From: Podarcis gaigeae
Lineage: Eukaryota
Direction: 5' to 3' (one strand)
NCBI GenBank assembly: GCA_964106915.2
Contig: OZ066927.1
Length of the DNA stretch: 64,000 bases
Of the stretch, positions 37,301-40,300 are shown piece by piece (the first letter of the stretch is position 1; each line of letters begins with the position of its first letter). A program made the position numbers.

Positions 37301-40300
37301 TACAATAATATGAACCGACCTGGACCCGTGATCATCATCTGAGACCCTTCATGTGCCTCCTCTGTGAGAGGTCCAGAAGGTGGCAACCTGAGAACAGGGC
37401 CTTTTCTGCAGTGGCCCGCAAAATCTTTAGGCGCCCAGCAAAAAGATGTCTCTTCAGCCAGACAGTTGGCTGATTAACATTCTATGGCTTTTAAATGTGT
37501 TTGTGGGAGGGAGGTTAATGGCTTGTTTTTGTTTTATTATGTATTTTGTGTTTTCTGTTGCAAACGGCCCCAGGAACGTCAGATGAAGAACGGTAAGTAA
37601 ATAACAACAACAACAGCTATATAGCTGGGATAGTCAGAAGCGTATGCGACTCTTAATCTCAGGGTGGTGGGTTTGAGCTCCACATTGGGGAAAAGATTCC
37701 TGCATTGCAGAGGTTGAACTAGATAACCCTTTACAATTATATTAAATAATTGAAATGGCTATGCTTACATGACACATTTATTGTAAGTCGTCTCTGTTTT
37801 GTTGGATTAAAATTAGATTTTTTAAATATGCAGCTAGGAGTAATGTACACATCTCTGCAAGCCATTTCCCCTAATAGAATGCATTATTGCATGTTGTTTT
37901 CACTAATATCTCCATTTCTAGGCATACTTTCCCCTAACAGATGCATTGTGGTTGGCTGGAGAACTGCATTGAAAATTAGGATAAGTGCAAATGTTGAAGG
38001 ACAGACATGTTTCACATGTTTTGGAAAGTGTGAACTGGAGAGATTCTGCTTTAAATATGTTCTGGATTGAATTCCCCCTCTATCCTCTTGTCAGTCGGCT
38101 GAGGTGAGGAGGCGAGGTCTAAACCGATAAGCGGCAAGTTTTGCCCTACTCGTTGCAGAGTTTTCTTTAGTCAGCCTTTGTTAGAACCAGATTTTGTTAA
38201 AAGAACACAGTAAATAATATTCAGAAAAGCAAACTATTTATGAAAGTGCTTCTGCACCACTACAAATCAAAGTGGGGCTGTGTATAACAATAAAACAACA
38301 TAAAACATAATTTGCACTATCCCTCCTTTTCTCCAAGGGAGCCCAAGGTGGTGGACCTGGTTAGGCTGCTCCCTGTTTTATCCTCTCCACAACGCTGCAA
38401 GGTGGATTAGGCTGAGAGACCGTGACTGGCCCAAGTTCACCCAGTGGGTTTCATGGCTGAACAGGGATTTGAACCCTGGTCCTAGTCCAACACTGCACCA
38501 TAAATGTCTTTTGAGCCATACATCTCCATAGGTTACATTCAAATAATAAATGGATCAAACAAGCCCATTTTCCTACAGACTTGTCAATGTGAAAATTTAC
38601 ATCCCTCCTATGAACTAAATCTGCTGATTTGCCCATTTCTGCCATTATGTTAAAATGGTTTGCAAGGTGGTTGAGGATAAAAAGCAACAACACTTTAAAA
38701 CATTTTGGAAAATTTAACATGCTAGTAGGAAACTGCAAGGGATGGTTTCAGGTGAGACCCCATTGTGTGGAGCCCATGAATAGTACAGGGGCATGGCAGA
38801 CGCTCCACACACTGGGATTGCCAAGGGCCTGCGTGAAAAGTCTACAGAGCCCACGCCAGGTTATCCTAGATGTGTCTTGGGATCTTTCCTCTTTGATTTT
38901 TAGGTTTGTTTTTATATTGCTCCATACCTGGCTGGGGATATATTTCACATTTATATGCCACTTTCCTCCAAGCAGCTCAAGGTGGCACTTGTGGTTTTCC
39001 ACATTTTCGGAGAAAAACCTCACTGAGTTAAATGGGACTTAATCCCAGGTAAATGTGTTCCACTGTATTCTTTGGGGGTGATGTCTGTGGAGAAAAGATG
39101 GGGTGGACAGGCAATAACATGGGGCTTCCAGATGTAAGTGCAAAGCGTTGCCACATTAAAAAATTATCATAATAGTTCTTGTTCTTCCACTATGCACTAA
39201 AAAAACCCAGATATTTCAGCAAAATTCTTAGTCCTAATTTGTCAAAGTTTAGATAAGAATATCTTTGCTTTTTGCTCCATATAGGATTCTGCCACTAGAT
39301 GGTATCAAATTGCTTCCCCTTGAGATTGCCACATCCCCTTAGTGTTTCAAAAGAAAAACTAAATGGACCCTGTGTCTTGAAATACACATATTGCTACTGT
39401 TGAGCAAGAAGCTACAGTTAAAAAATTATCTGCAGGTATATGCATAACTGTTGATCTCTGCTATTTCATTTTGCAGTGTGTATAAGTGAGATGTTTTATT
39501 TTTTTCACTCAGGCAATTCTTTTTGTTCCTTTTGACATTACTTTGGTATATTCTCCCTTTAGCTGGCTACAACTATACTGACTTTATGTTAGCTTGTAAT
39601 GTTTCTGTTGTTTCTGTCTTAGTTGTGTGTCAATTAGTCTACTGCTTCTATTTATGTGTGTGGCAAAAAATGTATTCTAAAAATAATTTAATTTTTGATA
39701 TCTATGCAACTCTAGAAATATTCCCATATTACATTGGTTGGCTGATGTTGGAAGCTGAACGCTGAACAAAAAGACAGAATACATTATTGTGGTCTTACAC
39801 ACAGCTGCTGCAGAGATAGCCACACACAATTTTGCTGCTTTATGAATGTCTTCAGCCCAGTTCTAGTGACTTTTAAAAACTTTTAGCCTTGAAACCCCTA
39901 AGAGTCTTAATTTACAATGTATTTGTGAAGTGGCTCATCATAAGCATGGCAGCTTGCTTTTGCTTTTGTTTTATGTTGGTGTTATAAGAATTAGATGTTC
40001 AAAAATGTACCAAGCAAACACATACAAATATGTACCGTAAACCACATGTCTGAAACCCACAGAAAAGTCCTGAAGCAATTTTCTCTTTCACAAAATGACC
40101 TCAAATATTTCTCTACAAGGTCGAAGTAAATGGGGAAAAACCTCCACATTGTCTCTGTGCTCACAAATCCTGCCTTAAGGGCACATTTAAGATGTGAATA
40201 GGATGAACATGTGACCTGGAATCGGGAATTAAGTAGTTATAATAACAAAAGAGTGGCCAAAACCCAGATAATGCAATCAGGTAACCTGCCAGACAGGAGA

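What the first reader, a model, noticed from the sequence alone, without database searches (positions are those of the whole stretch)
38880..39140. APH1B appears lost from its RAB8B-CA12 slot, leaving a fossil exon 5
Established: in mammals the order is RAB8B(+), APH1B(+), CA12(-), and APH1B is one of two gamma-secretase APH-1 subunits. Seen: the interval of about 11 kb between the RAB8B 3'UTR and the CA12 stop has no recognisable intact APH1 exon. On the expected strand there is a ttttag acceptor, FVFILLHTWLGI (APH1: IILLH(T/V)FWGI, including the conserved TM His), a ~120-bp repeat-like insert, a segment matching IVFFDGCEKKKWG codons with indels, and a gtaagt donor. Inference: a unitary APH1B pseudogene, so this lineage may build gamma-secretase from APH1A alone.
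Basis: partly seen in the sequence, partly recalled or inferred. Interest (0 to 1): 0.75.

Follow-up and report, generated by a model that had tools for sequence, protein, structure and literature searches.

The report
Possible APH1B exon relic in lizard
A short, broken stretch of lizard DNA between the RAB8B and CA12 genes looks like the leftover of one exon of the gamma-secretase gene APH1B, which is otherwise missing from its usual place; if confirmed, it is an ordinary lineage-specific gene loss.

Summary
The window is from a lacertid-like lizard: the best CA12 match is Podarcis muralis, 95-100% per exon. RAB8B (+) ends at 31769-31771 and CA12 (-) ends near 46744.

The two hits are on the same strand, in the right order and 124 nt apart. 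A pair this good arose in 25 of 54,974 query permutations on the real interval. It arose about 0.002 times per 128 kb of simulated DNA. After correcting for protein length, p is about 0.005, or about 0.08 with strict gap costs. Splice-like AG and GTAAGT sites flank the stretch.

Against this, Pfam's Aph-1 model, the PDB and the ESM Atlas do not recognise it. No real APH1 sequence could be fetched, and no other exon relic was found. No intact APH1 exon lies in the 15-kb slot on either strand, with positive controls passed.

Verdict: probably a real exon relic (about 0.6). Genome-wide loss of APH1B is untested. Interest is modest.

The parts
31748..31771 (+). End of the RAB8-type coding sequence (...FFRCTLL, then a stop at 31769-31771). 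Left anchor of the slot.
Evidence: Upstream exons at 26520-26612 and 28306-28410 score Pfam Ras 25.1 and 17.6 bits.
38888..38903 (+). Acceptor-like site: a pyrimidine tract (12 of 14 Y) ending in TTTTAG, with AG at 38902-38903.
   Evidence: It is one of 112 such sites on the + strand of the 64-kb window.
38904..39133 (+). Putative decayed APH1B exon (230 nt), not translatable in one frame.
38905..38940 (+). Piece A, FVFILLHTWLGI.
   Evidence: Best A hit of both strands of the window; traceback. A >= observed arose in 128/3000 query permutations. The conserved TMD5 His171 is from passages of PMC8745412.
38941..39064 (+). 124-nt stretch between the two pieces with no APH1 resemblance. Its length is not a multiple of 3. 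Possibly an insertion.
   Evidence: No second copy in the window; only a 20-nt 90% match at 50858-50877.
39065..39104 (+). Piece B, VFFGG..C..(V)EKRWG, read with two 2-nt skips (39080-81 and 39085-86). An equivalent reading has a two-codon insertion, a +1 slip and one lost Lys codon.
   Evidence: Best B hit of both strands of the window with lenient and medium costs; traceback. B >= observed arose in 62/3000 (medium) and 7/1500 (lenient) permutations.
39105..39133 (+). Tail of the putative exon. No resemblance to APH1 that I could see; this is judged from recall and not tested.
   Evidence: translations; comparison by recall only
39134..39139 (+). Donor-like GTAAGT.
   Evidence: There are 22 GTAAGT and 34 GTRAGT on the + strand of the window, and this is the only one in 38.0-40.5 kb.
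46747..46824 (-). Last coding exon of CA12 (residues 319-344 of the Podarcis muralis protein P0001, 96% identity). The stop lies just below 46747. Right anchor of the slot.
   Evidence: tblastn, exon by exon; CA12 identity

Best explanation
The stretch 38904-39133 (+) is the decayed remnant of one coding exon of APH1B. This is the exon that encodes the end of transmembrane helix 5, with its conserved histidine, and the following loop. It lies where APH1B is expected, between RAB8B (+) and CA12 (-), in a lacertid-like lizard. It does nothing now. It is split by a 124-nt stretch, carries small frame-breaking indels, and the other exons are no longer recognisable. The gene most likely died in place through inactivating mutation followed by neutral decay, small indels and insertions; two SINE-like copies sit 1.4-3.2 kb downstream.

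Shown: the slot is empty of intact APH1 exons, the two-piece match is better than chance, and it has splice-like borders.

Inferred: that the match is homology, that the gene died here rather than moved, and that this lizard therefore builds gamma-secretase with APH1A only.
For: The matches are on the same strand, in the right order and 124 nt apart.
(2) Null from simulated DNA. First-order Markov, 7.68 Mb: pair >= observed 0 (lenient), 0 (medium), 3 (strict). Third-order Markov, 103.4 Mb: 0.002 per 128 kb at the observed score of 72, with a simulated maximum of 73. At low thresholds the real window agrees with the simulation: 31 vs 37 at >=48 and 9 vs 8.9 at >=52.
(3) Null from permuted queries on the real + strand 32001-47150: 25/54,974 (medium), 0/1500 (lenient) and 11/1500 (strict).
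(4) A strong acceptor-like YAG lies within 16 nt upstream and a GTRAGT within 45 nt downstream. Both together occur at 0.11% of random positions. These window sizes were chosen after seeing the site.
(5) The site is on the expected strand inside the slot defined by the RAB8-type stop and the CA12 stop.
(6) No intact APH1 exon competes with it. Aph-1 was found in 0 of 30 550-aa chunks of the + strand, in 0 of 6 coarse + frames and in 0 of 6 - frames. Controls were detected.
Against: - None of the 6 candidate peptides sent alone matched any Pfam family at E <= 10, Aph-1 included.
- PDB phmmer found nothing for piece A or for one frame of piece B.
- For the other B frame the PDB search found only OAA-type lectin repeats. 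The summed E was 0.0021 but each stretch had i-E >= 55, so this is a chance look-alike. It shows how readily this W/G-rich peptide matches unrelated proteins.
- The ESM Atlas gave no usable hit.
- The word-index protein search gave 3 candidates, none at E <= 10.
- With strict gap costs the permutation p is only 11/1500. Times about 11 for protein length, that is about 0.08.
- The 29-nt tail shows no resemblance.
- No other exon relic was detected. Two 'exon 4-like' stretches and one 'last-exon-like' ORF that I picked by eye all failed Pfam, PDB and Atlas.
I recall the same, but they were never checked against a fetched APH1B sequence.
Confidence: 0.6

Rival explanations
1. Chance look-alike. 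Two short hydrophobic and W/G-rich strings in T-rich intergenic DNA happen to resemble adjacent APH1B motifs. The AG and GTAAGT are ordinary random sites. APH1B left this slot without a trace, or was never between these genes in this lineage.
For: - Pfam Aph-1, the PDB and the Atlas do not see the match.
- With strict gap costs the p is 11/1500 before multiple-testing correction.
- Piece A alone is unremarkable: 128/3000 permutations reach its score.
- The piece-B frame also matches lectin repeats by chance.
- My own by-eye 'exon 4' and 'last exon' candidates proved unsupported.
- No other exon relic was found.
- The motif boundaries were chosen after seeing the sequence.
Against: - The best A hit and the best B hit of 128 kb coincide within 170 nt, in the right order and on the right strand.
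- 25/54,974 permutations and 0.002 per 128 kb in simulation reach the pair score.
- Splice-like borders add an independent p of about 0.001.
- The location is inside the expected slot.
Confidence: 0.3
2. The relic is real, but it is not a unitary loss. A working APH1B, either moved or a surviving tandem duplicate, exists elsewhere in this genome. The stretch here would be the dead copy, comparable to the rodent Aph1b/Aph1c duplication (recalled).
For: There is no direct evidence.
Against: No second APH1-like sequence appears anywhere in the scanned part of the window. Relocating a single gene out of a conserved block is rarer than loss; that is general knowledge, not tested here.
Confidence: 0.15
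3. The stretch belongs to a live transcript, such as a long RAB8B 3'UTR, an antisense or non-coding RNA, or an unannotated small exon, and is kept for a reason unrelated to APH1.
For: Good splice-like borders. poly(A) signals on + are scattered from 34.9 to 41.7 kb, so the end of RAB8B is not fixed.
Against: - No open frame spans the stretch.
- No Rfam family or tRNA is in the window.
- No protein family matches.
- Nothing about conservation or expression can be tested here.
Confidence: 0.05

Closest known systems
APH1B (gamma-secretase subunit APH-1B; Pfam Aph-1 family), specifically the exon covering TMD5 and the TMD5-6 loop
   Same: Position between RAB8B (+) and CA12 (-) on the + strand; the mammalian gene order is recalled. 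The histidine corresponds to the conserved TMD5 His171 named in PMC8745412 (passages).
   Different: It is not a gene. It has no continuous frame, a 124-nt interruption and small indels. No other exons are visible. It does not reach any score against the Pfam Aph-1 profile.
Unitary pseudogenes: lineage-specific loss of an otherwise conserved single-copy gene, with remnants left at the syntenic locus (GULO in primates is the textbook case, recalled)
   Same: A disabled remnant sits at the orthologous position while both neighbours stay intact.
   Different: Only one exon-sized remnant is visible. Absence of a working copy elsewhere, and presence in outgroups, were not testable here.
Processed (retro-copied) pseudogene of APH1A or APH1B
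   Same: A short, broken piece of APH1-like coding sequence.
   Different: The piece is exon-sized, bounded by AG and GTAAGT, and sits in the parental slot. There is no adjoining sequence from neighbouring exons and no poly(A) tail next to it. By my recall the second motif is of the B type rather than the A type; this was not tested.

Membership tests
APH-1 family (Pfam Aph-1) | Significant match to the family profile | tested here: not met
   6 of 6 candidate peptides sent alone gave 0 families at E <= 10. Aph-1 was found in 0 of 30 550-aa chunks and 0 of 6 coarse + frames. Pieces of 10-13 residues are below what the tool's filters pass, so this does not exclude a relic.
APH-1 family (Pfam Aph-1) | Conserved TMD5 histidine in its hydrophobic context (His171 of human APH1A) | tested here: met
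His171 (TMD5) is named as conserved and functionally important in PMC8745412 (passages). The motif itself is recalled and was not fetched.
APH-1 family (Pfam Aph-1) | Intact open reading frame for a seven-helix membrane protein | tested here: not met
   All three frames of 38860-39200 carry stops, and pieces A and B lie in different frames. No other APH1 exon is in the slot.
APH1B orthologue (as opposed to APH1A) | Position between RAB8B and CA12, same strand as RAB8B | tested here: met
   Ras-family exons on + ending at 31771. CA12 exons on - ending near 46744. The candidate is on + at 38.9-39.1 kb. The reference gene order in mammals is recalled.
Unitary pseudogene | Disabling lesions in a sequence demonstrably homologous to the gene | tested here: inconclusive
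   The lesions are clear. Homology rests on two recalled motifs with a corrected p of about 0.005-0.08, plus splice-like borders.
Unitary pseudogene | No functional copy anywhere else in the genome | not testable with these tools
Unitary pseudogene | Functional orthologue present in outgroups at the same locus | not tested
   No APH1B sequence or vertebrate locus could be fetched (one search found none).

The most novel reading that the evidence does not exclude
Lacertid lizards, and perhaps a wider squamate clade, have lost APH1B altogether and run all gamma-secretase on APH1A. That would make them a natural amniote knockout of the APH1B-type complex, which in mammals gives relatively more long A-beta (PMC8745412, passages). 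The stretch at 38904-39133 would be the last readable trace, and it could be used to date the loss across squamates.
Probability: 0.35. Interest if true: 0.45.

Novelty: new member of a known kind. Interest (0 to 1): 0.3.

Why it matters
If real, this is one more lineage-specific loss of a duplicated gene, here one of the two APH-1 scaffolds of gamma-secretase. It would show that an amniote lineage does without the APH1B-type complex. It would also give a natural comparison for work on how APH1A- and APH1B-containing complexes differ. The relic would give comparative genomicists a marker for dating the loss.

It does not open a new mechanism. By my recall, mice lacking Aph1b/c are viable, so the loss would not surprise specialists much. 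I found no paper reporting it:
- 0 papers hold APH1B together with squamates.
- Among the 15 listed papers for APH1B/pseudogene/lizard, none holds APH1B.
- The one listed paper that holds APH1B with reptiles and birds (PMC11594159) only tabulates deep orthologues.

Tried and rejected
1. Fetching a real APH1 sequence.
- The search for homologous proteins with the piece-A frame (45 aa, longer proteins): 3 candidates, none at E <= 10.
- The PDB searches returned no APH-1 chain.
- The motif strings occur in no paper.

2. ORF 39490-39765 (91 aa, hydrophobic). By eye it recalled the last APH1B exon, and it is in phase with the donor at 39134 through the acceptor-like AG at 39511. Pfam gave only DUF7050 (E 0.11, 12.6 bits), the PDB gave 0 hits and the Atlas gave no usable hit. 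Rejected as unsupported.

3. By-eye 'exon 4-like' peptides at 36940-37149 and 36669-36824. Pfam found 0 families in 6 of 6 queries. The PDB found only two type VI secretion-associated proteins, at E 0.58 and 0.73. Rejected.

4. Repeat nature of the 124-nt insert. No copy was found in the window and no repeat library is available. Left open.

5. Lectin hits of the piece-B frame. Chance, driven by four- to five-fold repeats in the targets.

6. Rfam and tRNA scans of the whole window: nothing.

7. Coarse Pfam scans miss weak, short exons. The RAB8-type exon that scores 17.6 bits alone was not reported inside a 3267-aa frame, so I repeated the + strand scan in 550-aa chunks.

Full report
CONTEXT. 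The window has no N.
- On the + strand it carries Ras-family exons: 26520-26612 at 25.1 bits and 28306-28410 at 17.6 bits. The coding sequence ends ...FFRCTLL, with the stop at 31769-31771.
- On the - strand it carries CA12. One exon (62021-62218) finds 105 CA12 proteins. The best is Podarcis muralis at 95% identity, followed by other squamates at 74-87%.
- A local tblastn of that Podarcis protein, read exon by exon, places eight exons from 62218 down to 46747 at 66-100% identity. The last exon covers the C-terminus.
- The DNA is therefore from a lacertid-like lizard, and the slot between the two stop codons is 15.0 kb.

THE OBSERVATION.
- A pyrimidine tract (12/14) ends in TTTTAG, with AG at 38902-38903.
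- FVFILLHTWLGI is at 38905-38940.
- 124 nt without resemblance follow (38941-39064).
- VFFGG..C..EKRWG, readable only with small frame slips, is at 39065-39104.
- A 29-nt tail follows.
- GTAAGT is at 39134-39139.
- No single frame is open across the stretch.

IS IT MORE THAN CHANCE? I could not fetch any real APH1 sequence, so I used the two motifs printed in the finding as queries, typed separately. I recall them as adjacent in human APH1B. I scanned with a small frameshift-tolerant local aligner of my own: BLOSUM62 per codon with three sets of gap and frameshift costs fixed in advance.
- Over both strands of the window, the top hit of the first motif and the top hit of the second both fall at the candidate. 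They are on the same strand and in the right order. With the strictest costs the second motif is equalled at 55252(+) and beaten by one point (score 30 against 29) at 51571(-).
- First-order Markov DNA, 7.68 Mb: a pair as good arose 0, 0 and 3 times for lenient, medium and strict costs.
- Third-order Markov DNA, 103.4 Mb: 0.002 per 128 kb at the observed pair score of 72. At low thresholds the real window agrees with the simulation, so the null is adequate.
- Keeping the real + strand 32001-47150 and permuting the residues of both motifs: 25 of 54,974 permutations reach 72, 0 of 1500 reach the lenient score and 11 of 1500 reach the strict score.
- A local search with the whole protein (about 257 residues, recalled) has about 11 times the search space. 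That gives p of about 0.005 for medium costs, below about 0.007 for lenient and about 0.08 for strict.
- Independently, a strong acceptor-like site within 16 nt upstream together with a GTRAGT within 45 nt downstream occurs at 0.11% of random positions. Those window sizes were chosen after the fact.
- By my recollection, a human APH1B isoform skips residues 123-163. That would put an exon start about six codons before the TMD5 histidine, as here. I could not check this.

WHAT THE DATABASES SAY. Nothing recognises the stretch.
- Six candidate peptides sent alone gave no Pfam family at E <= 10. Two RAB8-type exon peptides of 31 and 35 aa in the same call were detected.
- PDB phmmer gave 0 hits for piece A and 0 for one frame of piece B.
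- For the other B frame the PDB gave only OAA-type lectin repeats. Their summed E of 0.0021 comes from four or five repeats, each insignificant on its own. This is a chance match and a warning about short W/G-rich strings.
- The Atlas gave no usable hit.
- Pieces of 10-13 residues are below what these tools can pass, so these negatives weaken the relic reading but do not refute it.

IS THE SLOT EMPTY? Yes, for intact exons.
- Stops were read as X. The + strand 28201-38003 and 37501-47402 showed no Aph-1 in 6 of 6 frames.
- The + strand 32001-47152 in 30 chunks of 550 aa showed no Aph-1 in 30 of 30. The only hits were weak and unrelated, all below their curated cut-offs.
- The - strand 37499-47400 and 31799-37602 showed 0 families at E <= 1 in 6 of 6 frames.
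- Controls: the same coarse format finds CA12 at 67.4 and 109.5 bits and a reverse-transcriptase piece at 20.8 bits. It misses the RAB8-type exon that scores 17.6 bits alone.

OTHER EXONS. None was found. Three stretches that looked APH1-like to my eye failed every test: 36669-36824, 36940-37149 and the 91-aa ORF 39490-39765. If the relic is real, the rest of the gene is either deleted or decayed beyond these tools. Scanning for further exons with more recalled motifs was left out, because that would mean typing a protein from memory in pieces.

INTERPRETATION. The best reading, at about 0.6, is a dead exon of APH1B left at its ancestral place. It is interrupted by 124 nt and by small indels. 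TE activity is visible nearby: a SINE-like family has copies at 40557-40880 and 42026-42346 inside the slot. The main rival, at about 0.3, is a chance look-alike. Whether this lizard lacks APH1B altogether cannot be told from 64 kb. I put that at about 0.35-0.4 overall.

KNOWN AND NEW.
- Two APH-1 homologues exist in humans, and complexes with Aph1b give more A-beta-42. His171 (TMD5) and His197 (TMD6) are conserved and important (PMC8745412, passages read).
- No paper in the library links APH1B with squamates (0 papers).
- Related searches listed nothing relevant (listings only).
- PMC11594159 (passages) only lists APH1A and APH1B orthologues back to fungi.
- The case is a new member of a known kind, a lineage-specific gene-loss relic, and is of modest interest.

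LEFT OUT OR UNCHECKED.
- All protein and profile searches were done piece by piece or exon by exon.
The rest of this genome, other squamates and outgroups therefore stayed unchecked.
- No supplementary files were consulted.

Noticed in passing
window 40557-40880, 42026-42346, 56659-56982, 26768-27082 (all +): A dispersed repeat family of about 320 nt. Copies are 89%, 80% and 73% identical to the copy at 40557-40880. Their translations share strings such as ...WVKPQSLGLADQKVGGSNP.... It looks like a tRNA-derived SINE by my recall, but ARAGORN and Rfam report nothing. Two copies lie inside the RAB8B-CA12 slot.
   Followed up: partly
window 39490-39765 (+): A 91-aa hydrophobic open frame 350 nt downstream of the candidate. 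It is in phase with the donor at 39134 through the acceptor-like AG at 39511. By eye it is faintly reminiscent of the last APH1B exon. Pfam gave only DUF7050 (E 0.11); the PDB and Atlas gave nothing.
   Followed up: yes
window 36940-37149 and 36669-36824 (+): Peptides (...KGSGLGWFDS... / ...IGNLADSGHSTPSHNYVFTA..., and ...FHNSSLSDINVLLT...) that by eye recall the TMD4 GxxxG region and following loop of APH-1. They lie 1.8-2.2 kb upstream of the candidate on the same strand. Pfam found 0 families, and the PDB found only chance hits at E 0.58-0.73.
   Followed up: yes
window 39027-39134 (+), frame of ...SVEKRWGGQAITWG...: This frame matches the repeated VENQWGGS..W motif of OAA-family lectins in the PDB. 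The summed E is 0.0021, but every single stretch has i-E >= 55. It is a chance match inflated by target repeats.
   Followed up: yes
window 16193-17711 (+), 54100-54300 (-), 44028-44564 (+): LINE remnants. There are long open frames with reverse-transcriptase-like strings at 16.2-17.7 kb, and an RVT_1 match of 20.8 bits near 54.1-54.3 kb on the - strand. A 178-aa frame at 44.0-44.6 kb, inside the slot, looks like the C-terminal part of a LINE ORF2 by my recall; it was not tested.
   Followed up: partly
window 47202-47294 (-): The CA12 transmembrane exon (...LWLIRRKK) runs into an in-frame stop at 47202-47204. The Podarcis protein continues in a further exon at 46824-46747. The splice is therefore just before that stop, and the CA12 stop is near 46744, about 0.4 kb lower than a reading that ends at the transmembrane exon.
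   Followed up: partly
window ~31250-31300, ~42880-42960, ~23480-23560: Simple repeats show in the translations: (TG/CA)n runs read as THTHTH or CVCVCV at about 31.3 kb and 42.9 kb, the latter next to a run read as YYYY, VVVV or SSSS. A trinucleotide run at about 23.5 kb reads as LLLLLL or NNNNNN.
   Followed up: no
window 50858-50877 (+): A 20-nt, 90% match to part of the 124-nt 'insert' (...CTCACTGAGTTAAATGGGAC...). It is the only hint that the insert belongs to a dispersed repeat.
   Followed up: no
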